From Schizochytrium sp. TIO01 (taxonomy: Eukaryota > Protista > Bigyra: Labyrinthulomycetes): a DNA stretch of 64,000 nucleotides. The first letter of the stretch is position 1. Each line of letters begins with the position of its first letter. Positions 35,561 through 64,000 of this stretch are shown here, one piece after another. The stretch spans positions 5,434,862-5,498,861 of the forward strand of contig SMSO01000025.1 of NCBI GenBank assembly GCA_004764695.1, in the 5' to 3' direction. The translations under genes were made by a program, and so were the position numbers. The notes below the pieces were generated by a model, which ran no database searches, was not told the origin of the DNA, and saw only the letters and a list, made by a program, of their open reading frames with translations.

Positions 35561-35585
35561 AGACTCTCCAGTCAAACTATGCTCC

Positions 35586-36147
35586 AGGTAAGAATTATAT
35601 CTACCATACAGAGGTAATGATTTAGATATAGTAGTTTGTGTTTTTACCAAACCCCAATAACTAATCATTACGAACTTACATTAACAAGTTGTTTAGTAGG
35701 TAAGAATTATATCTACCATACAGAGGTAATGATTTAGATATAGTAGTTTGTGTTTTTACCAAACCCCAATAACTAATCATTACGAACTTAAATTAACAAG
35801 TTGTTTAGTAGGTAAGAATTATATCTACCATACAGAGGTAATGATTTAGATATAGTAGTTTGTGTTTTTACCAAACCCCAATAACTAATCATTTCGAACT
35901 TAAATTAACAAGTTGTTTAGTAGGTAAGAATTATATCTACCATACAGAGGTAATGATTTAGATATAGTAGTTTGTGTTTTTACCAAACCCCAATAACTAA
36001 TCATTACGAACTTAGATTAACAAGTTGTTTAGTAGGTAAGAATTATATCTACCATACAGAGGTAATGATTTAGATATAGTAGTTTGTGTTTTTACCAAAC
36101 CCCAATAACTAATCATTACGAACTTAGATTAACAAGTTGTTTAGTAG
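35586..36147 (+). repeat. Tandem minisatellite, 5 x 112 bp, near-identical units
   Basis: Unit AGGTAAGAATTATATCTACC...AACAAGTTGTTTAGT starts at 35586, 35698, 35810, 35922 and 36034. Only two variable positions seen; no spacers. Confidence 0.98.
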
Positions 36148-36229: not shown

Positions 36230-38740
36230 TTAAACTTCTAACCAAGGTTCAAGTTTAGTATCTACAGTTCCTGATTTCACTGCATGATAGAGGAAATTCA
36301 TTGGCTGTCCACCATATTCTTTCATTTTTTCTTCAAATCCGCGATATTCTCTTGGAACAAATGTTTTTGCTGAGGAATCTCCAAACCCCAAACCTTGAAG
36401 TGGGGTGTACTTGCACCTCGGTAGATTACGCCAACAAGTGTCATAGAAGAACACCTCATCGACAGACCAATTTTCAGGTGTAAAAGCAACTTGGAGAACC
36501 CACTCCATCATACGGCGTGATACGCGTGTTACACCTGCAAGAACTCGGCCAAGGTGTCCATCAGCTTCCCAAAAACGAGAAACTCCCCACCACATGTTGA
36601 CGTTTTCGGTTGAAATTTCCTGTTTGATAATACTTTCAATATCGCCGTATCTGAAAGACATTGCAAGGAGATCTGAATCGTCGTCTTTCGTCCGCTCCAA
36701 AAGATTCGATATGTTTCCGGTAAACGCCACATCATAGTCGAAGAGCCAGAGATACTCGAGGTCTGGTCGATGATCAAGCGCATGCTTGAAGATCGCGGTT
36801 GTCTGAGCGTAAGTGAAGAGCCACATGAGTGAGTCGACATTGAGCAACGATTGTTTCATGACATAATCACCATTTATGTTGCGGGTGCAGAGAAATCTAA
36901 TTGGGTGTATCTTACAACCCTCCTCAAGACCAAGAACAGCGTTAGAAGGTAGAATCTTTTGAGCAACATTCACATTATCAATGCGCCAAACACCATAGCC
37001 AGGCCCCGAGGTACGCCTTGTCACCTCGCGTTTGAATTTGTTATAATGTGCTTGACCATATTTCCGCCCATAGGCGACCGCCACTTCGACACCACTTTCG
37101 TGTGTGTCGCGTGCCCAGGCATGGAGAGTTCGATTAATTCGATCGGAAAAGAGATGGGATTTCATAACAATCATCGTGTTCGAGGAGGTGGCACCTTGCT
37201 TGGGAGGTCTCGCATCTATGACATCAAAGACCTGCTTACCTGCAAGCTCTGACATTTCGGCTACTTGAAGCTCCTGCATGCACGTTTGAGAGTCCCCAAC
37301 TTCAAGTTTATCGTAAATATACACCGAAATCTCTCCTGTGGTGAGCATAACCTCCTTGGGTTGCCAGCCAAGTTCAACAGGTAATGGATAAACCGCTTCA
37401 GAAATAACACCAGCAAGGACCTCACTCATTCCCACAGAATAAGCTAGAGACCTTAATGAAGATGCTTCAAGATGTTGAATGACCTTTGACGAAGTACCTC
37501 CAAACATCTCTGTTGTGCATTGTTCGGCACTTACTGGAGTAAACGTGAATACGTCTGAGCGACGTCGACGGGGCATCTTAAACGATGGATTTTTTCCGAG
37601 AACAAGTATGTTAACTGAGCGCGCTCGTGGATCTTCATTCCAGTCTAACCGAGGCTTCATGAGATCTTTAAGAGTAGATTTTTTCACCGGAGGGTTTTCC
37701 TTCCCGACCACGACAACTGGTTTCAGTTGGCGACGCACTGTGATATTCGAATCGTTTTCTCCCACGTCGGAGAGGAATGCCTCAAAACTGTGAATCTCAT
37801 TCATATATCTGTCGTGGAAACTTTCCATGGTGTCCGAGATGTTTTTTAAATCAGCTTCTGAGATATCAATATTCTTCAATGTGGGCTCGCTGCTGCTCTG
37901 TAAACGTCGATGCTCTCCATCAGTATGATTAAGTTCACCTGAATATTTCCACTGGTCCTCGTGAAATGGGGCATGTGGATCATACCGAGTAGCTTGTCCG
38001 TCAGGGGATTGTGTCAGCAAGCTACGCATAGTAGGCAATGGAGCGCGGCCTTTGGCGAAAACAACCCCAGGTTTTGCTAAAGCATGAGTTAAAGTACGAC
38101 CTAGCTTGAGGCGCACACCAGGACGCAGGTACAGCACACTTTGATTTTTTTGTAATGCATGAACGTTGATCATCTCATCGCCTCGAGGCGTTTGTAGGAC
38201 AGTAGCACCCCAATTGTGGATGAGTTTGAGCTCCTGAGGTAATAGGGATGCAGAGGTCACGACTACTACATCGACGTTATTTTGCTTTGACTCAAGCATC
38301 GATTGGGAAGCCAACCTCAACATGTATCTTAGGTGTAAGAACTGCAAGCGCATCAACAAATACCGGTGTTTTTGGTATTGTGAACCTAAATTACGAAGAA
38401 GACTGCTACGCTCATCCGCTGCAAAGTCTCGAAAGACAGTAGCAATTACAAACTCCTTTAGATGGGGGTTTCCCGAAATCTCAAGGGATTTCATATAAAT
38501 ATATCCGCTATCTTGGTTGACTGGTATCATCGAAGGTATCTTGTCAAATTCACCGCCGTCTAAAATCGTTTTTGATCTGAGATTCATCGTTGGCAGAGGT
38601 GCAGCAGCGAGTACACTAATCAAAAGCATGAACATCGGGATCAGGCAGACTATGAAAAACATAATACGGGCAGGACCCATTTTCGAAATCCTGCTTGAGC
38701 TGTCTATGCAGAGAGAAACCCAGCCAGTTCTGATATTCAT
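36230..38740 (-). CDS. Large type II membrane protein with a C-terminal glycosyltransferase-like (GT-A/DUF3405-like) domain
   Basis: Signal anchor IMFFIVCLIPMFMLLISVLAA, C-terminal YLWLFDYDVAFTGN (DxD), R.SRRMM, DEVF..T.C, LYHAVK. Start is ATG 38740 or 38680. Confidence 0.65.
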   Translation of the reverse strand: MNIRTGWVSLCIDSSSRISKMGPARIMFFIVCLIPMFMLLISVLAAAPLPTMNLRSKTILDGGEFDKIPSMIPVNQDSGYIYMKSLEISGNPHLKEFVIATVFRDFAADERSSLLRNLGSQYQKHRYLLMRLQFLHLRYMLRLASQSMLESKQNNVDVVVVTSASLLPQELKLIHNWGATVLQTPRGDEMINVHALQKNQSVLYLRPGVRLKLGRTLTHALAKPGVVFAKGRAPLPTMRSLLTQSPDGQATRYDPHAPFHEDQWKYSGELNHTDGEHRRLQSSSEPTLKNIDISEADLKNISDTMESFHDRYMNEIHSFEAFLSDVGENDSNITVRRQLKPVVVVGKENPPVKKSTLKDLMKPRLDWNEDPRARSVNILVLGKNPSFKMPRRRRSDVFTFTPVSAEQCTTEMFGGTSSKVIQHLEASSLRSLAYSVGMSEVLAGVISEAVYPLPVELGWQPKEVMLTTGEISVYIYDKLEVGDSQTCMQELQVAEMSELAGKQVFDVIDARPPKQGATSSNTMIVMKSHLFSDRINRTLHAWARDTHESGVEVAVAYGRKYGQAHYNKFKREVTRRTSGPGYGVWRIDNVNVAQKILPSNAVLGLEEGCKIHPIRFLCTRNINGDYVMKQSLLNVDSLMWLFTYAQTTAIFKHALDHRPDLEYLWLFDYDVAFTGNISNLLERTKDDDSDLLAMSFRYGDIESIIKQEISTENVNMWWGVSRFWEADGHLGRVLAGVTRVSRRMMEWVLQVAFTPENWSVDEVFFYDTCWRNLPRCKYTPLQGLGFGDSSAKTFVPREYRGFEEKMKEYGGQPMNFLYHAVKSGTVDTKLEPWLEV

Positions 38741-41385
38741 CTTAATCTCTCCTTTAGAATGAAAGGTCGTCGTATCCTTTTGCAATGTTAGAAACGAAAT
38801 ACAATAATATGATTCGTCACTGCGCAAATGAGTAAAGAAGCACTGCCGATTTTTATGCAATTCCTACGTTGGTGGCTATTCCAGCACCGAGAAAATATGG
38901 ATGAAACCCCTGCAGGGGAACCAATTGGGTTTGCTTGCGGCCCATCAAGCTTTTTCGTTTTTTGTAATTTTTAAGGTATTTTTTAAGGTATTAAAAAAAT
39001 AAATGTTTTTTTTTGGTTTTTTTGGCTTTTCTGTTTTCAGCTTAATTCCACGACTCGAATAGCTGCCCCGAACCAATTGAAGTTCCAACTCATGCCTCCA
39101 CCCAATCTCATTTTTCTAAAATGAGTTCCTTTGGAGGTAATACTCCTAGCGTATTTTTACATGTAGAGAAGCAACATTCCTCCCAAGAAAGAAAAGGACG
39201 CAAACTTGCAAGTTAGAAGACAATTTCAATTACAATGTTTTCTTTCGGGAATAAATTTTTTATTTCAATTTCTCAAACAAGAACACCAAACCTGAAAGCG
39301 AAGTGGGGATCTCCCTGCGGGGGTTTCTTCCATTATTCTCAGTGCTGGAATAACCACCAACGTAGGAATTACATAAGAATCCAGCAATGCTTCTTTACTA
39401 ATTTGCACAGTGAAGAATCATACCATTGTATTTTGTTTCTAAATCCTACCATTGCAAAAGGACGAACTCTCATTCTAATGGAACGTTTAAGATAAATATC
39501 AGAATTAGCTGGGTTTCTTTTTGCACAGACTGCTCAAACAACATTCCAAAAATGGGCACTGTATATATTATGTTTATCAAGGTCTGATTACGTTCACACA
39601 GGTCTTCATGATTGACAAACTAACAAGCAAAAGCTGTTATTTGAAAGACTCGGGAGGGTAGGGCAGTTGAGGCTTACTTCTGTGCTATCCCAGCAAATGG
39701 AGAATGACGTAGTCCATAGAGTGAAATACTCTGGAAACCAAAAAATCTTTTGCATAGCACGCGAACCTGCTACAATGAATATATTTATTTTTGTTCTGTG
39801 CTTTGTTTTGCTTTTTCCTAAAATTGTGGGGATTTTCTGTCACTATCTATAAAAGGAAGACTTATTTGGTGACCTTCATAATATGAGCATCGACTGCTTT
39901 CTTTTCTTAAAAAAAAACATGAGTGAACTTTGTTTCAAGATCGATTACGATGTATCGCAAAACAATCAGCAGCAATACTCAGCCCACCAACATCACTTCT
40001 TTTTGTTGAAGTTGAGATATCCCTTGGACTTTCACTCATCTAATTCGTATGATAAAAGGTAGTCGAAAAAGGAAGAGGATTCTCTATTGTAATAGTCTAG
40101 TCTCCAAAATAAATTTATCATAAATTTTCTAACATTATAACAATAGCAATCATAGTAATAATTATACAGAGTATCTGTATAAACATTTGTGTATCATATT
40201 TTCTTAATGGTGACGCTGACTAAACTTTGCTTTTTTGGTTTTGTTTTACTGTGAAATTCAGGGCAAGTTAGTATAGATGCGCGATCATTGTGTATATTTG
40301 CGAATTGTTTCGGCCAATTATACAAGAGGTTTTGGGGCCTCAGAACTCACTTCACTTCCATAGACGTTGGATGTCCTTGACCAAGTTCGGAGTTTTGTCT
40401 TGCCCTTCAAAAAGATGTGAGAAATTGAAAGCCAAGAATGCACATAATGGCGACACTATAAAGAGAATGTCTATGACCCTCTACTTCCTACTCCTTTCCT
40501 TTGTTATAAAAAAGAAATTAATACAACTACTGAATATCTCCTTTTGCTTCCTTACTATTATCTTCCAAAATGATATAGTATTTTTGAACGCTAAGTACTA
40601 AGCGATTAAGATAGATGAGAGTAGTGATATAGTGACATAGTGACATGACTTCGCGGTGGTCGATCCTGAGTCCCTGGCTAACTGGTTTATATTCGAGTGC
40701 TTCATGCCTCTGTGATGCTTCAGTGTTCATACTTTCTTCGGCTTAGTAGAAATCTAGTCGTACAAAAGTTTCAGAAGATTGCTGAAAGGTCTATTTTATT
40801 AAACAAAATGTTTTAGCTGCACAACAAGGTATAAATCGCTGTTTTTCATTAACAGCCCTTAAAACTTTCTGCTTAAAAGTAGAGCCCTTGAAAGTCAGGA
40901 ATAGCGCGTGTCTTTTACTTACTCTCTTCCTACTTACCTACATAGCAACTTTTTGTTTATTAATGAAAAAGAAAAAAACACCTTCTATCTATCTGCCTAC
41001 TGTTGGAACTTTATTGGAAGTTTGGTCATGTGTACTACCTATGATGCATCTTCCCATTCGATTCTTTTTGAAGAAAAAAAAAACAAACAATTAATTTAAT
41101 CTATCTCGCTAACTATTTCAGAATACCTGGGCTTTTCACTCTGCAACCTTTTGGCGTTTTAGTGCTACCAGAACCCTAACAAAGTAATTAAGTTGTTTGG
41201 AAGTGTCAAATAAATTGAGAAAGCAGGTCGGCAATCATGACAGACCATTGACATCAATCAAGCCAGTCAACTTGCAACCTTTGAGCTGTCGAGTCTCACC
41301 AAAAACAATGATTAGAATGCATACAGGCCAATCGCTCTCAAGAACAAGTGGCTGCTAGGGAATCGACGTCATGACTCAACCTCAG

Positions 41386-43019
41386 GCTTCTCAGATCACA
41401 CTGACATGCATAGGCTAGAAATAGTAGAGCTGAAAGAAATGGTTGTTCATCTATCTATGTTCTGCGACATGTTCATGCAGTCGGTTGCCATTCTTGTCAT
41501 CTCCAAACTGGTATCAACGTAGTGGAAAACATAAATGCTTCACAAAAAGCAGATACCATTTACTCGCTGTTTAGGGTGCACTATCGCATAATTACTTAGC
41601 TTCTCAGATCACATTGACAGGCATAGGCTAGAAATAGTAGAGCTGAAATAAACGGTTGTTCATCTACCTATTTTTTGCGACATGTTCATGCAGTCGGTTG
41701 TCATTCTTGTCAGCTCCAAACTGGTATCAACGTAGTGGAAAATATGAAAATGACCCGAATACAGGGCGCACAGTGCAGCAGCCTTCAAGTTTAGGGGCTA
41801 GGCGAATGTTTCTCGCCGTAGACGATATTTACTCGACTGGTTTGAGGGAGTGCGTCTCTTTTGTTGAAAGAGAAGACCCAAATAACAACCACGCAAACGG
41901 GGGAAGACGCCCTCCGCCTCAAAATGTAGTGGGAATCATTCTGACATCCTGGAAATTGCCTCCATGGGTCGGCGCCCCCTTCTCAGAAGAAACAGGCGGT
42001 ACGCGCTTTGATTTCTCGCTCGAAGACGCCAACGGCGACGGTAGCGACCGCGAGATATTTACCGTCGAGTGGCCGGATATAAGATTTGACGACGATAATC
42101 CTGAGCGGGGAAGTCAACTAGATACGGCCCTCGATTCTGCGGCGGCTCAACAACAGACGACACACGAATCGGGGGCGGGGCAACGGGCTCGGTCTCATTC
42201 TCTGAAGTACAGACAGACACTGCGTAGGTTAATGAATGAGGCGATTGAGCGAAGTCCTCACAGGCGGGAGAGGGCCTCGATTGATGTTTTTCATCATGCA
42301 CGTCGACACACCGTGATCTCTTGCCGCTCCAAAGCGCCGCGAAGCGACACAGAAGAAAGGACCACAGACCGCTTCCCCACCGATGCTGTTGCTGACCCAC
42401 CAATGAAGGTCCGTAAGCTTCTTCCGTCGCGATGTATGCTTCTTCGACGACGAGAGCGTATGGAGCCGGCGGCGGCGGCAGTGGATTCCATTGAGTTACT
42501 CGCCCGTCCGGCCACACCCGCTCGAAGGGATCCCCGATCTCCGCGAGTACGAGTGCGCCTCCTGTTTCGGAGTGGTCCGAGCGCTCCTCATGCTTGCAAC
42601 CAGGCAATGGGCTTCTCATTCTGCCAGGACGTAAGCTCGCGAAGAGGGTTTGGGCGAGGAACTGAAGTGATTGAGTCGCCCTGCCCCGTCTTCCTCACGC
42701 CTATCCCTTACGTCAACCTCTATGCGCGGCAATTCCCTCACGTGCGCCCACTACAGAGCGTCCCACTACAGAGCGTCCCACTTCTGCGCAACTCGCCCAG
42801 CGACGAAGACGACGAAGAAGAAGTATAAGAAGAAGATGATGACAATTTCTACTCTGGTGCCTCTCTTTCTTCTTCTTCTTCTTCTCCCTTTCTGACGCAC
42901 ACCTACTACTGAATAACACAGGGAGCACTAGCAGGAAAAGTGGCACTCTCAAAAAAAAGCAGTTACCAGCACCAACCTTACTCGCTGTTTCGGGTACACA
43001 CTATCGCATGATTACTTAG
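41386..43019 (+). repeat. 213-bp tandem duplication whose second copy is split by an insert of about 1.2 kb
   Basis: Copy 1 = A (41386-41529) + B (41530-41598). Copy 2 = A' (41599-41742) ... B' (about 42945-43019: AAAAGCAG.TACCA..TTACTCGCTGTTT.GGGT..CACTATCGCAT.ATTACTTAG). Confidence 0.9.
41745..42912 (+). mobile_element. GC-rich inserted fragment encoding a truncated protein resembling large-DNA-virus single jelly-roll (penton/minor capsid-like) proteins; candidate endogenous viral element
   Basis: ORF from ATG 41806 to TAA 42828. The frame continues (EEDDDNF...) to the junction TGA at 42912. Motifs NVVGIILTSWKLP..(AP)F...FDFSL and L.P.PYVNLY.RQFP..PLQSVPL. Composition shifts sharply against the AT-rich flanks. 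Confidence 0.4.
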
Positions 43020-43030
43020 TGCTGGTGAGA

Positions 43031-46000
43031 TCATTGGAAGAAGATAAAAGAGGCCTCGAGTGATAACTCGACCAACCTATGCTGTTGCCATAAACTCAAT
43101 TTGTGGCTATCAATGTTTTCAAATTTAGAAGTCGTGTTCTGAAATCCACTGGGATTCGACTCAGGAGGAGACAACAGAGGTTGCCCGTATGAGTTGAAAG
43201 CAGGACCACCATTCTGTACCCTTTCCTCTGAGAATGCGTCCTGAATAGCCCTACGCCATTGAAGAGAAGAATACTTTGAAACCTGATCTAAAATGGTCAA
43301 AATATAGGCTACTCCAACAACAAAGCCATCATCGGTAAAAAAAGCATCGTGGTGTTGCTGGGGCCGAGCAAGCCGCTCATGCGCAGCAAGCGACGACTCA
43401 ACGAAGTTGACGCATAGTGCTGGCACTAACATATAAAAGTAATCTAAATGATCTAATGAAGAAGTGTTGGGTCCAGAGCATCCAGACGGAGCTGCTTGTT
43501 GGTTGCTTCGATGACCGGATCTCAAAGCATCGCGGAAGACCTCCACAAGGACAGGAAGGTAGTCCTTCCCAAGCTCATACTTTTCACACAACGTTTCGCG
43601 CACTTGTGCTAAAGAAATGACGGCATTATCGACCTCGTTGTTTCCTAGAAAGAGATCCAATGGCGTGCTGTATAGGTTCGGCAACAACTGCGCGGCATTG
43701 GCAACCCAGTGGCGCCCCGCTGCACGCACCATGCGAACGAAACCCAAAGTGTTTCCTATCTTGGTCACAATTTCACGAATTCGTGTGAGATATGTGACAC
43801 CAGGCTGGAGTTCACCTATGTTTCGAATTTCCCGATTATAGCGGAATGCCCGTTGATAGGGATAAACATGCTCAATCGCAGAGTCTCTCATGTGAGAAGT
43901 AAACCATCTTCGTTCCCGAGCTAGATATGATTTAATTGGTTCAATCATCACGAGGTCCGACATCTCAGAAAAAGCTTCGGTGAGATACTGGTATGTGAAA
44001 TTAACACATGTGCTTAAGATGCCTAGGCCATGTGTGCTGATTGAACTAGAAATTGTTTCTACTGTCAAAGTACGCAGAGACTTGGCTCCTCGCCGTGCAC
44101 GCCGCTCTATAAAGAATTGTTGATTTAAATTATAATTGTACAGAGATACGAAGTGTGACCATCGCCTCAAAATGCTTAGCATGTCTATCCCAGCATCAAG
44201 CCCACCCTGGGGTAACGCTGAGTCCTCTATAGAGAGCCCATACTTCTCATGAGCAATTTTCTGCATTTCTGCATAAACACGCCAATCATGCAAAGAAAAG
44301 ACTGTCATGTTATAAAACTGTCTCTGTAAGTAATGCTCAATGTATTCGCGCGAATCAATGGTCATATCCATAATCTGGATATGACCTGTTCGTAATGCAG
44401 GTTTCAGCTGGTCAACCTGGAGCATCGACTGTTTAAGGTAGTCCATTCTAATGGCATGTTGTTCAAGTCGCAAAGACTGATCAACACGCACGCACAGTGG
44501 ATCTAAATAGTGATCTTTTACAAGTCGTAAGAGTTTGTCGCGATACCTGACACGTTCTTCTTGAAAGGAAGCCCCAAAAATGGTTCGTCCAGCCCGTGCA
44601 AAAGCTTTGACAAGGATCGGGACTCGTGCAGGGGGCGAGTCCTTAAGCATAACAGGAAGAAATGTGTCCATGTCCCATAGAAGCATCGTACAGTCACATG
44701 CGCGTTCTAACGCTGATGGCCATTGGGAAATAAGACGTAAGCGCTCAAGTTGCCTTTCAAGGTGAATCGATTCCTCCCAGGAACAATATAAAATGTACTG
44801 TCCATCAAGGTTCTTATGAGCTATTGCTGCTGCTCCAATCGCAAGCTTTATGCGATCCAAACTCATCATGCTAGCAGTACTCTCTTCCAATATATCAAGC
44901 CCGGCCATGACTAAGCCATTAGCTTGAGGGGAGCGATGTTTATTGCGACGTCGCGTCCATACGGAAGATTGGCGTTCGATATCTGCAAATACCTCTGCAT
45001 GAATTGAAAGGCTGTCATTTGCTGCAGTCAATCCATACGATAAAAACTTGCATGACATATCCTGAATTGTCTCAAGGAGTTCAATACACACGGACAGGGA
45101 TGAGTTGACAAGAGCTTTACTCATAGGAATTTGCTCAAGCGCATGCAATTGACGCGTTTGCACAAGCACACGGCGGATTCGGTAAGCGAGGGCAACAGCT
45201 TGAACCATATACTTTTCACGGCGCGCTTCGGTTGCTGCCGCGACATCCGAGGTCAAGATTAAAACCTGTTTTGCGTATGCAGGCAATCGTTGCTCCAACG
45301 AAGCTACAAATCTCTGGATATAATCTTTACGAAACGAAGCCCCAGCCTCGAGGTCTCCAAGAAAGCAATCAAGCACCCAGCCGGAGGTCCCTGTCAGAGG
45401 TACCACAGGTATAAGACGTCCGAGCCCTCGCAGCACCCGCCAAGCATCACATTTTCCACCCAAATCCTCAGCCAGCTGGCAAAGGACCGAGAGTCCAATC
45501 AACTTAGTCTCGCACTCATACGAAGGCAATATCTCTTCCTCACGATTCGCAGCCCTCCACTCCGCCTCAAAGTCGCGCACAAGAAGGTCGCATACACGTA
45601 AAAGAGCCTTCAAGTGATGAATCCCTACAGTCTTCCGAAGCGCTTTGCGAGCCTCAGTGCACCACAATCCCTGCAAAGTCTTCTCGTCCCCAGTGGTCCA
45701 GCTTGATCCCGGCACTCTCATGTTCTCCGCAGCATCAGCAAGTGATTTTCTCCATGCTTGAAGGTTATCGCTTTGTTTTACGAGAGTGTCAACACTTTCC
45801 AACATGCCAAGGCAGTGTGCCAACCAGCTCCAGGCCGAGAGAAAGTTCTCACAAACCTGAGCCAGACCGCCTAGAGAGACCCAGAGCATTTCAGAGACCT
45901 CAAGGCAGCGAGAAGAGAATACGGATGCGTGGCGGATATGTCTTGAAATCTTGTCGCTGCGTTGCAAAAGGGCTCCATCACAGCCGTCATAGGGGCCGTC

Positions 46001-46303
46001 GCCGGTTTCGACGCAGCCTACAAGGTTTGGAAAAACCAGTTTCTCGGCTTGAAAGCTCAGGTCCTGTGCCTCCTCGCACGCATAGGCTAGGAACTCAAGC
46101 TTCCCGCGTGGGGTTTGCGCGAATGAAGACGAAGGTGGCGTTGAAGCTGGAGACCTCCACGAAGAGCTCACTGAAGATGCTGACGGAGGAGAGGAGCGAA
46201 GTTGGGCGGCACGATGCGACCCTGAAGGACAAACCGCTTCAAGGCGGGAACGGTAAGAGGTGAGGAAGGAGCGGGCTTCGGGAGCATCGGCACAAGTGGC
46301 CAT
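43031..46303 (-). CDS. WASHC4: WASH complex subunit 4 (SWIP/KIAA1033/strumpellin-interacting)
   Basis: 1090-aa ORF with WASHC4 motifs FYNMT..LHDW..Y.EM...A..KYGL, Y.YNLNQQFFIER, SI.THG.GI..T.VNFTYQYL, IGN.LG.VRMVR and FTDDGF..GVAYIL.ILDQ. Confidence 0.92.
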   Translation of the reverse strand: MATCADAPEARSFLTSYRSRLEAVCPSGSHRAAQLRSSPPSASSVSSSWRSPASTPPSSSFAQTPRGKLEFLAYACEEAQDLSFQAEKLVFPNLVGCVETGDGPYDGCDGALLQRSDKISRHIRHASVFSSRCLEVSEMLWVSLGGLAQVCENFLSAWSWLAHCLGMLESVDTLVKQSDNLQAWRKSLADAAENMRVPGSSWTTGDEKTLQGLWCTEARKALRKTVGIHHLKALLRVCDLLVRDFEAEWRAANREEEILPSYECETKLIGLSVLCQLAEDLGGKCDAWRVLRGLGRLIPVVPLTGTSGWVLDCFLGDLEAGASFRKDYIQRFVASLEQRLPAYAKQVLILTSDVAAATEARREKYMVQAVALAYRIRRVLVQTRQLHALEQIPMSKALVNSSLSVCIELLETIQDMSCKFLSYGLTAANDSLSIHAEVFADIERQSSVWTRRRNKHRSPQANGLVMAGLDILEESTASMMSLDRIKLAIGAAAIAHKNLDGQYILYCSWEESIHLERQLERLRLISQWPSALERACDCTMLLWDMDTFLPVMLKDSPPARVPILVKAFARAGRTIFGASFQEERVRYRDKLLRLVKDHYLDPLCVRVDQSLRLEQHAIRMDYLKQSMLQVDQLKPALRTGHIQIMDMTIDSREYIEHYLQRQFYNMTVFSLHDWRVYAEMQKIAHEKYGLSIEDSALPQGGLDAGIDMLSILRRWSHFVSLYNYNLNQQFFIERRARRGAKSLRTLTVETISSSISTHGLGILSTCVNFTYQYLTEAFSEMSDLVMIEPIKSYLARERRWFTSHMRDSAIEHVYPYQRAFRYNREIRNIGELQPGVTYLTRIREIVTKIGNTLGFVRMVRAAGRHWVANAAQLLPNLYSTPLDLFLGNNEVDNAVISLAQVRETLCEKYELGKDYLPVLVEVFRDALRSGHRSNQQAAPSGCSGPNTSSLDHLDYFYMLVPALCVNFVESSLAAHERLARPQQHHDAFFTDDGFVVGVAYILTILDQVSKYSSLQWRRAIQDAFSEERVQNGGPAFNSYGQPLLSPPESNPSGFQNTTSKFENIDSHKLSLWQQHRLVELSLEASFIFFQ

Positions 46304-47275
46304 TCTGCTGCCGAGGCAACTCCTCTGTGCTCCCTGTTATTCTGATCTTTGTTGTTGTAGATTTAGAGATGATTCCATGACGTCTTTCATTTCTCAAAAT
46401 CTGGAGAACGCAAATTGACGCATTTCTGAGTTGCCCATCTTCGCTTCTTCTAACAAGGTGGTAACATTTACCTAACTACCTTTCTTTGTAAGATAGTATT
46501 AGGTACCTACCTAACTAGGTAGCATTAAACAATGGACAAACTACCTATCGGGACATGAAGTAATGAATGACTCTGGGGATGGACCGATAAAACATCAATG
46601 TCACTAGCGACTCGGAGGCCAACATAGCTTTGGGTATCCTTGGTGAAAGGAATTAGTGGTGCCATCTGCTGGTTCAGGGATGATTAAGGGCAATAAAGCA
46701 GTCTGTAGTACCTCTCACAGGGGTTAGTCAATGTAATAGTTGCAGATGGGAATTTTCAAAGTTAAATACTTGGTCCCGAACTTTGCGATGAACGAAACAA
46801 ACTGCTTCGCAAAGAATGTTGATGTTCATTGGCCCCTTAACTCTGATCATGAGATACTAGTTCACAGGAATGTCTCAGGTTTGGCTCAAGAGTGAAGGCG
46901 TTGAATTTTTGGGAGCAAGCTATCAAGGGAACAATAATACGCCTGAGAAGGTTTGGGAAAATAAAGGTAAGCTGAGTTGGAGTCTCTAAGCAAGTTGCAA
47001 GCACACAAAAAAATGGGAGAGGAGGCATATGTACTATGAATGGCTAGCTAGTAGTTGCTGATGATGTTAGATTATGTAGTCTTGCTTGTATATCTGTTTA
47101 CGATAACCCTACATGAGGGCAGCATTTAAGCACGTGGTTGTCAAAGCGTTCGGACCTGTCGATAAAAGTACTTGGCATGGAGAAAGAGGAGAGATAAGCC
47201 TGAGTTTTAGGAAGAAAACTGACTTCCTCAGCCCAAAACTTAATACCCATTAGCTGTTCGTTTGATCTTTCGGAT

Positions 47276-54453: not shown

Positions 54454-56637
54454 GTCTCCGGCGCCACAGTCCACGAGGCCAAAGTTGAAGCCACTGTCAA
54501 CGTCAAAGCCGCTAATCCCGACACCGACACCGACACCGACACCGGGCACGCGGCGAAGGCTAGGCCTCGCCAACGTTTGATCCTCCTCGGCGTCCGCCTG
54601 AGCTGCGGCGAGTCAGATTTTCGTGACACTACGTCGGCGGTAGAGGAGATGATTGAGGGATTGAAGTTGCTCGAGGGGTTGATTGTTCAAGGAATGAAGG
54701 GAGAATTGAAGGAAATTATTATTCCTATAGGAATAATCAACATAAAGAGTTTTACTTCTTCGCTTGCCTGCGTCAAAGAGGCGACACGATCGAGAAGGAA
54801 TTTACGCTCAAATTGGCAGGGGAAAACGTTGGGATTCCAGAGAGCAGTGGCTACAATTAGGCAATAAAAAAATATTCCTTACTTGAAAGAAACCTCAGTA
54901 TAAGCTACAAATTTGAAGCTCATTCTGGTTTGATTTTATGACAAGGCGAACTTAACAAGGAAAGACCGAAGAAAGATATTCTTCCTATTCCTACGTATCT
55001 CAATGCTCCTCTTAAGTGCTATCCTTCTTTCTTTTACCTTTTCATTTTTCATTTTTTATTCTTTTACTAGCAGTCGAAAGAGAAGTCTAAGATGAAGAGG
55101 TACAACCAATGACGACGACCTGTCTTTCTTTCTTTCTAGGGTTATAAAATGAAGAATTGAAAGGGCAGAAGGGAATCTGCCGAATCTGGGACTCACACGA
55201 CCAGAGGCAAAATACTACGAAGAGCCGAGCAGTGAGATCTACAGGAGCTTTACGACGAAGGAAGGCACATAAGCATTCGAAATCGTAAGAAGACAACGCT
55301 ATGAAAAGACCATTTTTGTTTAGTCTCATCGAAAGCTTAGTAGTTTCAAGAAGAGAAATAATTAGAGAAGAAAATACAAATGTCTGATCCTGGGAAGTCC
55401 TTAAAAATGTTGAGGATTAGGAAGTTGAAAGAAGCAATTGTGGCCAGTATACTAGTGATAGGGCAACAGTTTTCTCTTTTAACTAATAAGTCGCCAGCTC
55501 TGGCAAAATATACTTTACCTGAGTTTGTAAAGACTCATAATGTACATAAACTAACCAGAAAAGGAATGAACCCCGCAGAAGCACAATTACTAATGTTACA
55601 ATCAGGGTTTGTATAACAATAACAGTAGTATATTCACTTTTGACCTTCGTTTCCTACGCTGGGCTAACTCATGATCGTCTTTACTCTTTATCGATTGAGA
55701 ATTCGATCGCAAGTAGACCTATATTATCCGCTCTTCTGAATGGCAGTGAATTTTCTCTCTAGCAATCCATATTTGCTCACCTGCACGTCCATGAATAATG
55801 CTTCATTTTGGAATTCTATGAAATTCTCGATGTCCTTAAGCTTCTTTATATCATTTAGAATCTTGTTTCTGAATTTGTACTCATATCCTTTTCCACTATT
55901 CCACTTGCCTCCCGTTCCTCTACTCCTCCGGAGCAATCCCAACTATACTTAGATGAAACAAGCGTAGCTCCCATATATAGGACTTTTTATTTTAATTTTT
56001 GTATAAACTCACCACAGCTTGATTCTTAGACACCGCTGATCTGTATAATAATTGTAAATAGAGTTGGTGGGGATATAAATGAAGGGATCGTTAGTAGGAC
56101 TTATCATACGATCTTTTAATTCTGAAACCATCAAATATTTAGCACCAGGTAGGACGACTATTTGGCAGGTTTGAAGCTTTGCTTGGTTGTTCCTCTTGGT
56201 CGCCCGCATCATCTATCCCTTTCCAGCTCTCTTTTTTGGGCAGAATAACGTGAAAGCAGACTAGCTTCAAAGTGTCAAATTATCTATTAGGTCTTTCTCT
56301 TCGGAGCGCAGCCCTTGTCCTCTGCGTTTTTACTCAGGCCATTCGTAGCACTTGACATCCATTGCATCAGCGTCCAATTTTATCATTCGTTTCAAGTTCT
56401 TCATGAAGAACTAAATTTGTTCTCTCTGAAACTTTGTTCTCAACTTTGAAAGCAAGCTCAGCTTGTCAAGGTCAAGTTGTTCCGTGATCGTTCTGTTCTA
56501 GTGTTTGCTGTTCTGATGTGTTCCGTTCTCTTCGTTGACCATCGAGATCATCGTCATAGTTGTGGTTGTCGGAATAGATAGAGTAGTGGAGCAGCAAGCC
56601 AAAGCAGATTGCAAACGCTGGCTAGTTACTCGACGCG

Positions 56638-58602
56638 ATGCGTGCGTCCTCAATGATGGCGCAGCCCTCTGCGGCTTCTCGGTTTCTGCGCCGTTTCCCG
56701 TCCCTCCCTCGTTCCCTCTCGACAGCATCATGGTCATCTCCTCGATCCGGGATTGCCACAATCTCCAATTCCTCTCAGATTCACCGTCGCGGGGCAATTC
56801 AGACGTTCTCCGCGCAGAGTTTTGGAGCAACTTCCTCGCCATGCCTGCAGCACCGGTTTCTCTGCACTCCCTCGGCACCAATCTCGGATGTTGCTGCCGC
56901 TCAAGACTCTAAATCAACCTCCTCATTGCCTCCCCGGTCCTCTGTGGGAGTCAAGCTTCGCGTGCGCGGCCAGGATGGCCGTCTTCTGATTCTTGAAGAA
57001 CAATTTATCCCAGGTGGTGATGGTGGCGTCGTCCGTGTTGGTGATACCTTTGGTAGCTTTGACAGTCCCGATGCCAATGGCGCTCTGGGTGTGATCTTGT
57101 ATAGCGCCCACGGAGTCTACTTTGCAGCGCGTCTTGTGGACGACAAGCATCATCTCTTGGAGACTGGTTCTGACGTTCTCACGCGCCCTCTCAAGCCCCT
57201 GCGGCTCACCCGGAAGGCTGTTGAAGGTGCGGAGTCTCATAGACTCAAACTCTTGGAGTCAATTTGCGTGAAAAACGAAGACTCCGACGCTTCTGAAGAG
57301 GAGATTTTCAGACCCCAACCTCGAGACATCGCGCGAAAGGTGATCAAAGAGGGATGGAACTCGGGAATGGCGTGTGTTGACGTGCTAACTCCTATTGGCA
57401 GGGGGCAGAGCATGCTCTTCGCGACGCCGGAGTCTGCAGGGTCTGGTTACAGACGCGACCAGTACATGCTGGGAGTGGCCACGGGCGTGCTGCAGAGCAA
57501 GTTCAATGTGGACACGCACGTATGGGTAAGTGTCCCTCCCCGCAACAAGAACCCAGACACATTCCTTACGCCAGAGAACGTCAGAGTTACCCTCGGATCA
57601 AGAGCCACTATTGTGGAGTCGCTTGGACCCAATGACCCCGACGACGAAGATGCAGACGTATTCGGCGTCCTGAACTCATATGTTACGTGCACGCTGGCGG
57701 AAACGCGGAGAGATGCCGGAAAGCACGCATTTCTCATGCTGCCTGATCTTCAGTCGCATTACAAGGTCTGGTCGAGAGGCCTTAAACTCGCTGCAGAACA
57801 CTTCAAGGAGGCCAGGGGCTATGTTCCGGAGGCACTCTTTGCGCCGGGAGCGGACCGCGCAGACATGCGCCAATTTTACTCGTCACTTATTCAAAGATCA
57901 GCTCTCTTGAGAACTGGAGGCAGTCTCACTACGCTCCAGGGTGTCTTTACGTCGCCCCCGGGAGCGAACAAGGCTGCAGAGGAAACACCTTTGCCGTTTG
58001 GAGATCTTCTTAAGGATACTAGGCGCACGGCAAGTGAGTTGAACAGGCTTAAGCTGCTGAATGACCGTGGTGTGCCTCTGACAAGCAAAAATCTGGCAAA
58101 GATCGGTATTCGTGTGGACCCACCTAAACTCAAGGATTTTCAGACGCAACATGCAGAGGAGCTCAAGTCCATTTCAGATGGTCACATTGTTATGAACGGC
58201 GAGAAGGATCTCTTTGATTTCGACTTTCAGAATTCCCTCACCCGTATTGGAATTGGCTTCAATAAGGTCATCTCTGGTGATACGCGCCCCTTTGCACTGC
58301 GCCAGGTTGCAGGACCCCTACGTCTCGAGCTCAGCCACCTTATGGATGTCCCCCCTGAACAGCGTGGTGAGGTACCGGATCTCGTCAAGCGATATGCCGC
58401 TGCGCTCAAGCACCAGCCCCGTCGCTTCCGACAGCTTCCTGAGGAGGTTCTGCTCCTCCACGCAGTGGCGCTAGGTTATGATCCTAAGAATCTACCCGAA
58501 ATGGACGAAGAGCTTGCAAAGGAAATCATGGCCAACAAAGACTACATTGACCTTGACAAGCTTACACAGCTCTTTGAGAACATTCATGACTGCAGCAACT
58601 AG
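56638..58602 (+). CDS. Divergent F1 ATP synthase alpha-subunit-like protein, probably mitochondrion-targeted, Walker A degenerate
   Basis: R..I..G.NSG...VD.LTPIGRGQS.L, TLAE..RD.GKH, FYSSLIQRSA....GGSLT, SISDGHI and SLTRIG match the F1-alpha pattern. The GDRQTGKT position reads ATPESAGS. Long Arg/Ser-rich presequence. Confidence 0.75.
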   Translation: MRASSMMAQPSAASRFLRRFPSLPRSLSTASWSSPRSGIATISNSSQIHRRGAIQTFSAQSFGATSSPCLQHRFLCTPSAPISDVAAAQDSKSTSSLPPRSSVGVKLRVRGQDGRLLILEEQFIPGGDGGVVRVGDTFGSFDSPDANGALGVILYSAHGVYFAARLVDDKHHLLETGSDVLTRPLKPLRLTRKAVEGAESHRLKLLESICVKNEDSDASEEEIFRPQPRDIARKVIKEGWNSGMACVDVLTPIGRGQSMLFATPESAGSGYRRDQYMLGVATGVLQSKFNVDTHVWVSVPPRNKNPDTFLTPENVRVTLGSRATIVESLGPNDPDDEDADVFGVLNSYVTCTLAETRRDAGKHAFLMLPDLQSHYKVWSRGLKLAAEHFKEARGYVPEALFAPGADRADMRQFYSSLIQRSALLRTGGSLTTLQGVFTSPPGANKAAEETPLPFGDLLKDTRRTASELNRLKLLNDRGVPLTSKNLAKIGIRVDPPKLKDFQTQHAEELKSISDGHIVMNGEKDLFDFDFQNSLTRIGIGFNKVISGDTRPFALRQVAGPLRLELSHLMDVPPEQRGEVPDLVKRYAAALKHQPRRFRQLPEEVLLLHAVALGYDPKNLPEMDEELAKEIMANKDYIDLDKLTQLFENIHDCSN

Positions 58603-59364: not shown

Positions 59365-62300
59365 TCACTCATCGGGGTTTGAAACTAGACGTTCATACAA
59401 GAGCATGTCTCTCATTTCTAGAGTCACAGGCAATGAGGCCTCTTGAAGAGCTTGATCAATTTCACTTTGATCCTCAGGAACATCTTCACCATTAATCTTG
59501 AGCAAGACATGCCCAATAGCAACCTTATTCAAGGCCTGCAGAGGGCCGGGCAATGCCGCGAATGCCTTGAAGGCGGCACTACCATCTCGACACTTGTAGA
59601 AGATAATTCCCATCGGACTGCCTTCTGGAAATGTACAAGTACAGTCCTGCTCACTAGTTTCCGGAGCACCAAAGAGTACCTCCATTGGACGAGCTGCACC
59701 ACGCATCATTTGCACAGTTTGGGAAAATTTGCCAAACGGCACCTCCTCACCATTCACCTTCTTAACAAGAAAACCCCTTTTCCAGCTGACCAGAACACTG
59801 TTCTTCCGCAGGGCCCTTGCGTGTTTGGAAGCTAGTCACCACAGCAGGGCCATCCGGCACACGCGTAATGCGAACATCAGAAGGGGATTCCTGAAGCGTC
59901 ACGGAATAGTGTGGATCGCGTGTAAATCGTAAGAGCAGGGGGCGGTCGGGCGTATTTGCGAGCAAATTACGCACATCGCGAAATGTGCGGCCTACCACTG
60001 TGAGCTTATTCACGCTCGCCAGAACCATGCCAGGTTGCACACCACCACATGCCTCAGCGGGACCCTTTGAGCCATCCTCCTTGGGCTTAAAGCCCTTAAC
60101 AACAACTGAAAAATCGTGAGGATTTGCCACGTCCATCTCGTTTCCGTACTTTGAGCTAATCACCAAATATAATTTGCTTTCTGAGAAGGAAACATCCACA
60201 ATGTCGGATGAAGCCTTGCGCACGATTGGTTCAGAAATTTCGGGAGGTGGCGCCATGAAAGTAAGATGCAAGGGCCTGCCTACGCGACGCAGACGATCCA
60301 TAACCTTTTCCAGTGGCAACGAGGTCACATGTTCACCATTAAAAGCTACCAGAATGTCACCAACTTGAATTTCTCCACTTTGCTCAGCCGGTCGAGGCTT
60401 CCCGTCAGGTCCTCGACGAAACTCCTTTACTACAACATACTCATGTTTCTGCGCAAACGCCAGGCCAAGGGGGCCATCATCTTCGAACTGGACGCTGTAC
60501 ACGTTCTTCCCTTCCTTACGCAAACGTTCCATCCGCGCCCGCAAAATAAAATCTTGGGCAACGCCAGCGTCAGGCAGTTGGCTCACATCAATGTCTAAAA
60601 AGTTAGCAACTACAGACCAATTGGCGACTACAAAAGAATTTAGGGTATCACTGAGCGTCGTCAGATGCGTTGCGAGCGTATCTTGCAACTGTGACACAAT
60701 GTACTCGCGCAAGCTTGCTGCAAACAAGTCTGTAAGAGTATTCAGAAGCCAAGAAAAATGAGAATGTCTCACTTCGAGATCCAATTCGCCAATTTCTAAC
60801 TCACAGCCAGATGGCAAAAGCTGAGGTTCACCTCCTGAGGTTTGGACCAGCTGAAGGCCCAACTCCACGCTGAAATCAGCCAGACGAGCAAATCCAGTGC
60901 CCTCTCCAGATAAGTGCGGGAAGTAATTCTGTTTAACTGCCCATTCAACATGATCAAGTTCGGCTTCGATACCTGTGATGGAAATCAAGAAAAACGGCGC
61001 ACCTTGCTTGATGCTCTCAAATGGATTTAACCGCACATCAATATTCTCCTTACGCATCCTGAAGCTTCCGAGATCAATGTTTGCGATCCGGTACTCCAAT
61101 CCCTCGCGTTCACCAGATATAGGTGGTAAGGTCACACCAGGAAGGTGAGAGATCAGGAACTCAAGTACTTTTGTAATTACATCATTCACAAACTCACGGC
61201 GTGCATCCGCATCACGAGCAATTTTTTCGCCCCACTCAATCACACGCTGCGGATCAAGGTTCCGTGCAGTTTCTTCGAGAGCCTTAATTTCATCTCGTTG
61301 GCGAAACTGCTGAACATTTTGTGAAAGGGAATCTATGTTTCCGTATTTGCGTATATGTTCACTAAAAGCTTGTGCTTTTTCCTTCGCCAAAGGCAGAGCG
61401 TCTTTAGCAACATCAAGTCCGCCCTTGATTCGTACCAAACCACCACTTTTACTCTCAATGGTTTGAGCAACATCAGATGCACCACCCTCAATCTGATCAA
61501 ATATCACAGTTGCATAATTTTTCAAAAAGTTTTGCAACAGGTCTTTATTCTCCTCCAGTTTTTGCTGCAGTTCATTTTGAGTCTTTTCATCGTGTGCAAG
61601 ATCATTTAGTTTTTGCATTAGCTGCTGCGTTTCTGGTCGTTGTTTCACTTGCTCCAACACTTCGACAGCCTCATCATAAAGTTTGCGCAAATCCTCATCC
61701 TCCTCTACCTTCACCTTGATTTTATCACGAATTAGTCTCACGGCGGCTTCCACCCGCTCACGTTCACGCTGTAGATCAAGATTTCCCTCTAGCACAGCAC
61801 CCACAAACTTCTTAGAAACACCACCTGCAGCCTCAGGATGATTCAATAGGATAGGGTGTTCTTCTCCGTCTTCACGAATCTCTTCACTGACTGCAGCCGC
61901 CGCTTCTCTTACTAGAGGCGCACTGCTAGCCACTGTGTCAATGACTTGGTGGATTTGAGCGCTATTTTTTTCAAGAAGTTTAGCCAAAAGTTCAGTTCCC
62001 CCTTGTATTTGGTCGAGAAGGCCTGCAAGGAGATCTTTGATGAAATCTTGAAGAGCAGACTGAATTGCTTGAAAACGGTTTTCGAACTCTTCGTTTTCAA
62101 GTGTAGAGCTCAGCAAGTCCTGGAGCTCTTCAATGAGGTCTTTTGCTTCAGGGCGAATTTCGTGCAATGCATTTGCAATCTGCTCCCCTACGTCTTCAAC
62201 GTCTGCCTCGCGTGTTTTCTCACTTGATGTCTTAATTTTGCATGCTAACGAGTGAATAATAGCTCGGACTTCCTCTTTATGGCTCTTTAGTTCTTTATCG

Positions 62301-62863
62301 CCAAGTGCAAGTAGATCAGAGATCTTGTCTACTACTTCATCGGTCGGTTCTTTTGACTTTGAGGCAAGGTCCTCGCGGAGATCATCGCGTAAATCTCCAG
62401 CAGCCTCGCTAGTTGTCTGCGCAGTGACCTTCGCTACTTCCACCCCGATGGCTACCTTCTGGCAGTTCTCCTCAATCCCCTTGACGGAGTTTATTGCACC
62501 AGCTTCCACAAGAATGGCAATGGCATCCTTGACCATTCCTTGCACATTTACGTCTTCGATGTCTTCTTTCTCGTTCGCCTCTGCGAGCGTGTTTTGGATA
62601 AATTCTTGTAGGCCTTCTAAAGAACTTTTCATTGATGGTGGAGCGTTGCTCAAGGCCCGTGAAATAGGGTCATCCCTGTCAGAATCTGGGGTATCATTGA
62701 AGGATTCACGCAAGTTGCTCGCGATGGACTTGACAATCGCATGAACCCGGTCGCGATTCTTCTCAAGATCCGCGTCTCCTCGAATTAGCGATTCTGTGAT
62801 GTTCCGGAGTGCCAAACCAGGATCGCACTCCTCAACCACAACCTCGTCCTCGTGGTTCACCAT
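59365..62863 (-). CDS. Helical-repeat + TULIP/BPI-like + multi-PDZ protein; reading frame broken by one extra nucleotide at about 59770-59781
   Basis: ATG at 62863, then amphipathic helical repeats, a beta-rich ISGEREGLEYRIANIDL...FSWLLN.L..LF...LREYI segment, and PDZ motifs (GPLGLAF..AE.SG.IQVGD.LVA.NG; V.PGMVL.SVN). Removing 1 nt from AAAAGGGGTTTT gives ..EKGFLVKKVNGEEV.. and joins ORF 59365-59757, which holds further PDZ sequence. Confidence 0.75.
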
Positions 62864-64000
62864 GACTACAACGGTGCAACGAGCCTTACAAGTCGAATTT
62901 CTCAAATCGGATCCCTCCCTCAACCTACTGCACTTTCGTCGTGGATGATGTATGGAAATAGCCAAGGCTAGCAAGCAAGCCAAGTTGTTGCTCTAGCTCT
63001 TTTTCTGAGGCTTCGTATTCAACCTCCCTCTCGAGTCGCCGAGCAGCAATACAGCAATCAGGTTTTGCAGCAACTTAAATGACCGCAGGGAGCTTCTGCG
63101 CAGCTGAAGAACCCGAAGCTCTCGATGATTCACTTTTGCGCCTCCCGAAGCTATGGGCTTGGAGCGAGTTTGCTGTCTTTATGTTTACTTGGATCTCAGG
63201 CCTCTTACTTTTATAGTAGGTAGCTTTGGGGTCCCATGGTTACTTCATCGTAGTGCTATTTAGATCACCTAGTTACGTAGGTACTTAGTGAGAAGGGAAA
63301 AATATCTGATCAATGAGTTTGGAGATGAGCAGCAAATTCCACAATTCCACGGAGCTGAACGCAGCATTTATGAAATTCGAGATATGCTTTGCAATATCTG
63401 GTACGTGAAAACCAAAATTTTAATGTTAAAGACCAACTATTCATCCACAAAATATTCATTTCTATTATTTCTATGATGAGGACCAAGTCATAAAGGACAG
63501 AAAAGTGCTTCGCTCCCTGCATATACAATAACCCATCAGCCCGCCAGAGACCAATTAAAGGCTACAGAAGAACGTTGATGGAGGCAGAAGATAAATCTTA
63601 TCATTTGGCGCTTTCGTGTTAGCAAACTCTCTACCATATCTCGGAGAAAGTTTCAAGATCAATAGATGCACTTTTAAAATGATAAACTAGGCAACAAAGA
63701 AAGAAAAAAAAAGGGAAAAAACTTGAAAGGGAAAAAAAAGGATCCGTTGAGGTGTATGTTCTGAACTAATATAAATGCCCAGACGAGAGCGCAGCTGCTG
63801 GAGTTCAACATCGCTACCTGCCAGGCAATGCACGAGCTGACTCCTGACAAGTGCTGCCAGCGCCGCCATAACAGCTTGATTCCCGTCGCACTATATCAGC
63901 AAGGAGGGTAAGCTTGTTGTTGTTGCCTTGCGTAAAGCAAGCGCGGTCTGATTTGGTCAAAAGAAATAAACTTAAAACACGTATCAATGCAAAATGAGCT

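What the first reader, a model, noticed from the sequence alone, without database searches (positions are those of the whole stretch)
41745..42912. Candidate endogenous giant-virus capsid gene fragment (single jelly-roll penton/minor-capsid-like) captured downstream of WASHC4
Seen: an intronless, markedly GC-richer segment of about 1.2 kb with one long frame. It shows decay: a 15-bp internal duplication (PLQSV x2), a probable GAA>TAA nonsense change inside an acidic run at 42826, and truncation at the junction. By-eye pattern: N-terminal (F)LAVD.., NVVGIILTSWKLP..APF...FDFSL...FTV..P, then MGF, and IESPCPVFLTPIPYVNLY..QFP..PLQSVPL. This follows the 'nv..i.l....ip ... lGF ... l....yv.l.i......ipl' layout of penton-type jelly-roll proteins of Nucleocytoviricota and related large DNA viruses. 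Known: thraustochytrids host large DNA viruses and endogenous mirusvirus elements. Inference: a footprint of a possibly undescribed virus of this host.
Basis: partly seen in the sequence, partly recalled or inferred. Interest (0 to 1): 0.75.

Follow-up and report, generated by a model that had tools for sequence, protein, structure and literature searches.

The report
Fossil giant-virus penton gene in protist
A worn, three-quarter-length copy of a gene predicted to build the corner (penton) of a large DNA virus capsid sits just past the end of an ordinary host gene in a marine protist, likely the leftover of an infection by a virus lineage known only from a dozen unnamed environmental sequences.

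Summary
The frame 41806-42828 (340 aa) is colinear with a small family of unnamed ~310-320-aa environmental proteins (best E 2e-11; profile probability 99.4%). A predicted model of one family member matches capsid pentons (PBCV-1 P1, Z 14.9, rmsd 2.6; EhV-201, adenovirus, mavirus, Sputnik). One relative lies in gene-dense DNA with RPA1, RNA ligase and NDK and no Polinton genes; another lies on a 220-kb contig. So the donor was likely a large Nucleocytoviricota-type virus; its lineage could not be placed.

The window copy lacks the last ~75-80 family positions, including two jelly-roll strands. It carries two large in-frame insertions, has a flattened codon pattern and does not fold on its own (pLDDT 36). 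Both junctions are bridged in 8 of 8 independent runs, so it is not a chimera. All 8 also carry an 11-nt frameshift that stops the frame at 90 residues. The insert is likely carried antisense in the WASHC4 3' UTR (weak evidence).

Corrections: the TAA lies past the end of homology, and a mirusvirus origin is not supported. Verdict: a real, decaying single-gene viral fossil, modest interest.

The parts
41806..42828 (+). Penton-derived ORF, 340 aa. Residues ~22-321 are colinear with family positions ~26-240 of ~320; the C-terminal ~75-80 family positions are absent.
42104..42190 (+). Approximate place of an extra in-frame segment of 29 codons absent from all relatives (boundaries uncertain)
42343..42528 (+). 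Approximate place of an extra in-frame segment of about 60 codons absent from all relatives (boundaries uncertain)
42062..42072 (+). 11 nt present in the window and in P0006, absent in 8 of 8 laid runs; without them the frame stops after 90 residues
42747..42776 (+). Exact 15-nt tandem duplication (PLQSV x2); one copy absent in 7 of 8 laid runs and in P0006
42786..42953 (.). Non-homologous tail: GAA-rich microsatellite holding the TAA, then a TTC run and unique DNA up to the right junction
41744..41805 (+). 62 nt between the left junction and the ATG, 53% GC; likely donor DNA upstream of the gene (inferred)
41386..41599 (.). Host flank unit A+B (213-nt period), first copy
41599..41743 (.). A', second copy of A (9 mismatches in 144), abutting the left junction
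42954..43019 (.). B', second copy of B, abutting the right junction, 11 nt from the WASHC4 stop
43031..46336 (-). Host WASHC4 (WASH-7) gene; its 3' end points at the insert
   Evidence: PF14744 E 4e-91, PF14746 E 1e-28
41065..41069 (-). Possible poly(A) site of a minus-strand transcript (17 loose T in one contig of one run; weak)
   Evidence: table 7

Best explanation
This is a truncated copy of a gene predicted to encode the penton (vertex capsid protein) of a large, likely Nucleocytoviricota-type DNA virus, fixed in host DNA next to WASHC4 and likely decaying without function. SHOWN: sequence homology to a ~320-aa family; loss of the last quarter; real junctions; a frameshift in other strains. 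PREDICTED: the family fold (jelly-roll base plus DE-type insertion domain). INFERRED: (1) During infection, a ~1.2-kb piece of GC-rich viral DNA was patched into a chromosome break by end-joining repair. There is no integrase, terminal repeat or clean target-site duplication; the insert replaces a few bases at the A|B boundary of a 213-nt duplicated flank. (2) The piece never held, or soon lost, the end of the gene, so the product cannot close the eight-stranded jelly roll or build a vertex. (3) It has since drifted, with in-frame insertions, a microsatellite tail, loss of codon-position structure and an 11-nt deletion now common among strains. (4) It is transcribed, likely passively and antisense inside a long WASHC4 3' UTR.
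For: Homology: 4 non-self hits among 1.84 billion representatives, E 2e-11 to 8e-4; hhalign 99.4%, E 3e-21, 210 columns; 93.9 bits against at most 1.7 for 500 shuffles plus the reversed sequence. Fold of relative P0002: pLDDT 73; top PDB matches are PBCV-1 chains 8h2i_bG (Z 15.5, rmsd 9.2, 263 aligned) and 6ncl_a6 (Z 14.9, rmsd 2.6, 135 aligned; named P1), then EhV-201, fowl adenovirus, mavirus penton and Sputnik. BFVD top rows are mostly Nucleocytoviricota proteins, several named putative minor capsid; Atlas neighbours are DUF5901 and V18-19 clusters. Context of relatives: about 21 kb around P0007, 83-91% coding, RPA1, RNA ligase, NDK, LRR, and no Polinton/virophage Pfam family among 22 ORFs scanned; P0014 lies on a 220-kb contig. 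Decay: profile positions 241-319 absent in six frames. GC by codon position is 64/51/55 against 53/40/77 in the intact relative's gene at the same 56.5% GC, and second-position GC is above all 16 host ORFs (33-46%). End branch 2.93 against a median of 0.35, with skewed composition; Arg 12.6% against 2-5%. Frameshift in 8 of 8 runs. 3 of 3 substitutions in the ORF change a residue, against 9 synonymous of 13 in WASHC4. Integration: 20 holders in 8 studies; junctions bridged in 8 of 8 laid runs; the other window ORFs scanned are ordinary eukaryotic genes or have no family.
Against: The frame is more open than plain decay predicts. 27 of 39 covered family-conserved positions are kept, which matches ~15% neutral substitution; at that level only 8-45 of 1000 simulated frames stay open, and all alignment indels are in frame. 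Part of the divergence may therefore have happened under selection, in the virus or in the host. An unbroken allele exists in a transcriptome ORF (P0006). The fold is shown for a 29%-identical relative only. No parent contig with major capsid or packaging ATPase was seen, and the genomic context read belongs to the more distant subfamily (23% identity). The synonymous/non-synonymous contrast is weak: the host gene on the other side also showed 3 of 3 non-synonymous differences. No Pfam family hits the relatives. The order of insertion and flank duplication is not resolved.
Confidence: 0.72

Rival explanations
1. The host co-opted the fragment for a time. A truncated penton could have acted as a decoy that jams capsid vertices, or the antisense copy in the WASHC4 UTR could pair with viral penton mRNA; it is now being lost as the virus is gone.
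For: The frame stays open for 340 codons through two large and several small in-frame indels; 8-45 of 1000 simulated frames stay open at matching divergence. An unbroken allele was called on a transcriptome contig. The DNA is present in all 8 laid runs.
Against: A frameshift in 8 of 8 runs. No diverged orthologue from any other species in two whole-database searches. Flattened codon pattern and Arg-rich drift. All observed substitutions change residues. In-frame indels could have arisen in a divergent viral paralogue.
Confidence: 0.1
2. The donor was a small Polinton-like virus or virophage, whose minor capsid proteins have the same fold and which integrate routinely in protists.
For: Atlas feature hits include Preplasmiviricota-dominated clusters and V18-19 at 0.96-0.97; mavirus and Sputnik pentons are among the PDB matches. 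A 220-kb contig could be host DNA with an integrated element.
Against: The chlorovirus penton chains score Z 15.5 and 14.9, against 9.2 and 8.2 for mavirus and Sputnik. The 21 kb read around one relative holds RPA1, RNA ligase and NDK, and no Polinton-type family among 22 ORFs. No terminal repeat, integrase or second viral gene flanks the window copy.
Confidence: 0.1
3. The donor was a mirusvirus, since this kind of host carries them and they encode a conserved jelly-roll protein.
For: Mirusviruses have a conserved jelly-roll gene (PMC12768974, passages). Earlier unchecked notes place an AurliV-2-like element in the same genome.
Against: The one annotated mirusvirus jelly-roll row seen has a CRESS-DNA virus capsid as best structural hit (PMC12768974 supplement file 10), whereas this family matches pentons. 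This is one row only, so the test is thin.
Confidence: 0.05
4. Assembly chimera, or a chance frame in GC-rich DNA.
For: No single listed contig spans the whole stretch, because the tool skips the repeat at 42857-42895. The protein gets no Pfam or Atlas hit on its own.
Against: Both junctions are bridged in 8 of 8 runs that differ from the window's haplotype. Homology is far above shuffles.
Confidence: 0.01

Closest known systems
PBCV-1 penton P1 and its variant P1v1 (PMC9617893, passages; PDB 6ncl_a6, 8h2i_bG)
   Same: The relative's model has a jelly-roll base built from N- and C-terminal strands with a large insertion between them, as described for P1v1's DE insertion.
   Different: Only 14-17% identity. 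The window copy lacks the two last modelled strands and has no capsid context.
DUF5901 (PF19254) / putative minor capsid proteins of Nucleocytoviricota
   Same: Atlas feature and structure neighbours of P0002, TM 0.62-0.65 by query for the named rows; BFVD hits.
   Different: hmmscan gives no PF19254 hit for the window protein or its relatives; this is a separate small family.
Scattered, degraded giant-virus insertions in Acanthamoeba (PMC12210455, passages)
   Same: Partial viral genes in host DNA, lineage-specific, under relaxed constraint.
   Different: Here a single gene, no known donor, and apparently inside transcribed host DNA rather than silenced.
Skiavirales / Ariadnavirales (SmDNAV-like viruses of thraustochytrids; bioRxiv 10.64898/2026.07.28.741200 parts 1-2 of 6 plus passages; 10.64898/2026.08.29.747986 parts 1-2 of 4 plus passages)
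   Same: Nucleus-dependent Nucleocytoviricota that persist in this host group and swap genes with host nuclei; the obvious candidate donors.
   Different: Neither main text mentions a penton or minor capsid (0 occurrences); their gene tables were not seen. No named SmDNAV protein came up.
Minor capsid proteins of virophages and Polinton-like viruses (mavirus 6g41, Sputnik 3j26)
   Same: Same fold class.
   Different: Weaker match; the context of the relative read is that of a large genome; no element ends in the window.

Membership tests
Varidnaviria penton (PBCV-1 P1/P1v1 type) | Sequence descent from a penton-fold family | tested here: met
   homology; fold of P0002
Varidnaviria penton (PBCV-1 P1/P1v1 type) | Complete eight-stranded single jelly roll in the window's own product | tested here: not met
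   Profile positions 241-319 are absent in six frames; they hold modelled strands 267-277 and 295-305 of P0002
Varidnaviria penton (PBCV-1 P1/P1v1 type) | Large insertion domain between the N- and C-terminal strands | tested here: met
   Modelled at about 60-205 in P0002; the matching stretches are kept in the window with two extra segments
Varidnaviria penton (PBCV-1 P1/P1v1 type) | Forms a pentamer at the capsid vertex | not tested
   no complex job was run
Nucleocytoviricota (donor virus) | Double-jelly-roll MCP, A32 ATPase and VLTF3 on the same genome as the gene | not testable with these tools
   Only ~21 kb of flank was obtained; the records could not be searched whole; viral-contig scans found no relative
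Nucleocytoviricota (donor virus) | Large, gene-dense genome with host-like accessory genes | tested here: met
   83-91% coding; RPA1, RNA ligase, NDK; contigs of 44, 47 and 220 kb. Shown for relatives, not for the donor.
DUF5901 (PF19254) | Match to the Pfam profile | tested here: inconclusive
   No hmmscan hit; structural neighbours carry it
Polinton-like virus / virophage element | Minor capsid gene next to MCP, ATPase and pPolB or integrase, within terminal repeats | tested here: not met
   None around the window copy; none among 22 ORFs around P0007
Mirusvirus conserved jelly-roll protein | Homology to the Mirus_JellyRoll orthogroup | tested here: inconclusive
   No sequences at hand; one supplement row points to a CRESS-like capsid fold
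Skiavirales / Ariadnavirales | Closest homologue in an SmDNAV-like genome | not testable with these tools
   Genomes not available as named records; supplements not seen
Giant endogenous viral element (GEVE) | Tens to hundreds of kb with several viral hallmark genes | tested here: not met
   One 1.2-kb insert between host genes

The most novel reading that the evidence does not exclude
A marine protist took over the penton gene of an undescribed giant-virus lineage and used it for a time as an antiviral tool: a truncated vertex decoy kept in frame through several large indels, and wired antisense into a housekeeping mRNA's 3' UTR. It is now caught being lost, with broken and unbroken alleles segregating among strains.
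Probability: 0.08. Interest if true: 0.75.

Novelty: new member of a known kind. Interest (0 to 1): 0.4.

Why it matters
Single-gene viral fossils in protists are a known class. This one ties an unnamed penton family, so far only on anonymous environmental contigs, to a host group, and gives a probe to find the parent virus. If the parent is neither a skiavirus nor a mirusvirus, it would be a further large-DNA-virus lineage of thraustochytrids (host identity inferred). The segregating frameshift and the position in transcribed DNA make it a cheap case for watching a viral gene die, or for testing co-option.

Tried and rejected
No whole genome is held, so copy number and a parent gene elsewhere in the assembly were not tested.

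Window protein alone: no Pfam family; Atlas best 0.88, uninformative; only its own cluster in the word-indexed search (lengths 187-595 only); pLDDT 36 and 0 Foldseek matches at E<=0.001. A low-confidence model gives no evidence on fold.

Relatives in viral contigs: 7 scans, none confirmed. Genome contigs: none. Phage records: none. A second profile search added no new member. Sequence search of the PDB gave only sub-threshold rows, P1 at E 0.9.

Idea that the two extra segments are retained spliceosomal introns: not supported. There is no GT..AG candidate for the first (0 of 1379 in-frame variants); the two best GT..AG variants for the second rank 325 and 442 of 3123; no joint was seen there in 8 runs.

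The GAA/TTC hairpin in the tail is no more stable than shuffles (z -0.67); Rfam shows 3 sub-threshold matches on that repeat only. The tree cannot place the long window branch.

Expression: no RNA holder listed; run kinds are guesses, and contigs cannot show strand or level. Low cover at 39.1-41.0 kb and depth steps were not used as evidence. Contig ends at 41020-41194 in 7 of 8 runs are only a weak hint of a transcript end.

The literature search on RNAi genes in thraustochytrids listed nothing on the group. Paper searches listed no report of this insert; WASHC4 itself was not used as a search term. No complex prediction was run.

Full report
Observation. The + strand holds a stop-free frame from 41647 to 42828 with an ATG at 41806, giving 340 residues. 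A frame that long arose in 1 of 1000 simulations of the same DNA. The 1.2-kb segment is 55.3% GC against 45.6% for the window, in the top 2% of windows but near the richest host ORFs. The 15-nt tandem copy is exact. The segment starts right after A' (41599-41743), a copy of A (41386-41529) with 9 mismatches in 144, and ends before B' (42954-43019), a copy of B. WASHC4 lies on the minus strand and stops at 43031. The other ORFs scanned are eukaryotic housekeeping genes or have no family.

Relatives. The word-indexed search found only the gene's own cluster. The full HMMER search of 1.84 billion representatives found 5 proteins at E<=0.001: the gene itself and four of 310-320 residues. Two profile searches gave 10 clusters each and converged. 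None carries an informative name or a Pfam family. The window protein is colinear with the family: hhalign 99.4%, E 3e-21; 93.9 bits against at most 1.7 for 501 controls. Matches cover profile positions 45-240 of 319, and the rest is absent from all six frames of the window. Best identity is 29%. Two segments of 29 and about 60 residues are extra.

Fold. The window protein alone gave pLDDT 36 and no structural match. The relative P0002, folded with 13 sequences, gave pLDDT 73. Against 48,161 solved chains the six rows at Z>=8 are all capsid chains: PBCV-1 8h2i_bG (Z 15.5, rmsd 9.2, 263 aligned), PBCV-1 6ncl_a6 (Z 14.9, rmsd 2.6, 135 aligned; named P1), EhV-201, fowl adenovirus, mavirus penton and Sputnik (Foldseek agrees). 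BFVD's top rows are mostly giant-virus proteins, some named putative minor capsid, and the Atlas places it by DUF5901 and V18-19 clusters. PMC9617893 (passages) describes P1 and P1v1 as eight-stranded single jelly rolls that form the vertex pentamers, P1v1 with a large DE insertion. That 8h2i_bG is P1v1 is my inference from its length. The part missing from the window holds modelled strands 267-277 and 295-305, so the window product would lack two strands of the sandwich (inference).

Which virus. Three loci were recovered, all of one near-identical genome type around P0007. About 21 kb is 83-91% coding and encodes RPA1, an RNA ligase, NDK and leucine-rich repeats; 22 ORFs scanned gave no Polinton or virophage family. 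Other relatives lie on contigs of 44 and 220 kb. That points to a large-genome virus, but no major capsid gene was seen and this subfamily is the more distant one (23%). The tree cannot place the window row. Skiaviruses (Ariadnavirales) persist in thraustochytrids and exchange genes with host nuclei (10.64898/2026.07.28.741200, parts 1-2 of 6 and passages; 10.64898/2026.08.29.747986, parts 1-2 of 4 and passages); neither main text mentions a penton, and their supplements, which may list one, were not seen. The mirusvirus jelly-roll protein seems a different fold on one supplement row (PMC12768974, passages and supplement search); PMC10132985 (passages) does not mention pentons. PMC12606086 was seen as abstract and outline, 10.1101/2023.06.15.545109 as passages.

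Is it really integrated. Twenty runs of 8 studies hold at least half of the words of 41300-43300. I laid 8 of those 20. In all 8, one contig crosses the left junction and another, starting at 42896, crosses the right one. No listed piece spans the whole stretch, as the tool skips the repeat at 42857-42895. All 8 differ from the window at shared indels, so they are not the window's own haplotype.

Decay. All 8 runs lack 11 nt at 42062, which ends the frame after 90 residues; 7 of 8 lack the 15-nt copy. A transcriptome-derived protein, P0006, has the unbroken frame with three residue changes. The three substitutions seen in the ORF all change a residue, against 9 synonymous of 13 in WASHC4; the host gene on the other side also gave 3 of 3 non-synonymous, so this contrast is weak. 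GC by codon position is 64/51/55 in the window ORF and 53/40/77 in the intact relative at the same overall GC. The GC richness is thus likely inherited from a GC-rich virus, and the codon structure has eroded.

What does not fit plain decay. 27 of 39 covered family-conserved positions are kept (47 in all; 8 fall on gaps). Neutral change of that size leaves 8-45 of 1000 frames open, and the indels against the family are all in frame. Some of the change may have happened under selection, more simply in a divergent viral copy, possibly in the host. An intron origin of the extra segments was tested and not supported.

Transcription. The evidence is indirect: the transcriptome source of P0006, a spliced joint at a neighbouring gene in run X6, and 17 loose T before 41065 in one contig of X8. 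These suggest a minus-strand transcript ending near 41065, which would put the insert antisense in a 2-kb WASHC4 3' UTR. Strand is not shown by contigs.

Verdict. A real single-gene endogenous viral fragment, derived from a predicted penton of a large DNA virus that is not yet named, truncated and decaying. It works like nothing now (most likely), descends from a penton, and is not a GEVE or a Polinton. Comparable scattered, degraded insertions are described in Acanthamoeba (PMC12210455, passages). Nine paper searches listed no report of this insert. Interest is moderate: a host link and a probe for an unnamed virus family, with a small chance of past co-option.

Noticed in passing
window 38646-38910 and 39319-39586: Inverted duplication (79-88% complementary) of the 5' end of the 36230-38863 gene; with the 213-nt tandem copy it suggests repeated local repair events in this intergenic region.
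   Followed up: partly
window 43033: In runs X19 and X20 the WASHC4 stop codon is changed to a sense codon; the next stop follows after 4 codons.
   Followed up: yes
window 43031-46336: The WASHC4 N-terminal domain scores below the Pfam cut-off (23.5 against 25 bits) while the middle and C-terminal domains are strong; a divergent copy.
   Followed up: no
window 56626-58602: 658-aa ORF with a weak ATP synthase alpha/beta match (27.2 bits, below cut-off) and a mitochondrial-looking N-terminus; possibly a degenerate F1 subunit paralogue.
   Followed up: no
window 59762-62992: 1076-aa ORF combining a helical N-terminus, a BPI/LBP-like stretch and PDZ domains.
   Followed up: no
L001 4821-6683; L002 4194-5291: The unnamed virus-like genome around P0007 encodes a eukaryote-like RPA1 (TIGR00617, E 1e-25) and an RNA ligase (TIGR02306); its lineage is unplaced.
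   Followed up: partly
window 35585-36034: A GT..AG skip of 448 nt in a contig of run X6, a likely 3' UTR intron of the 36230-38863 gene.
   Followed up: no
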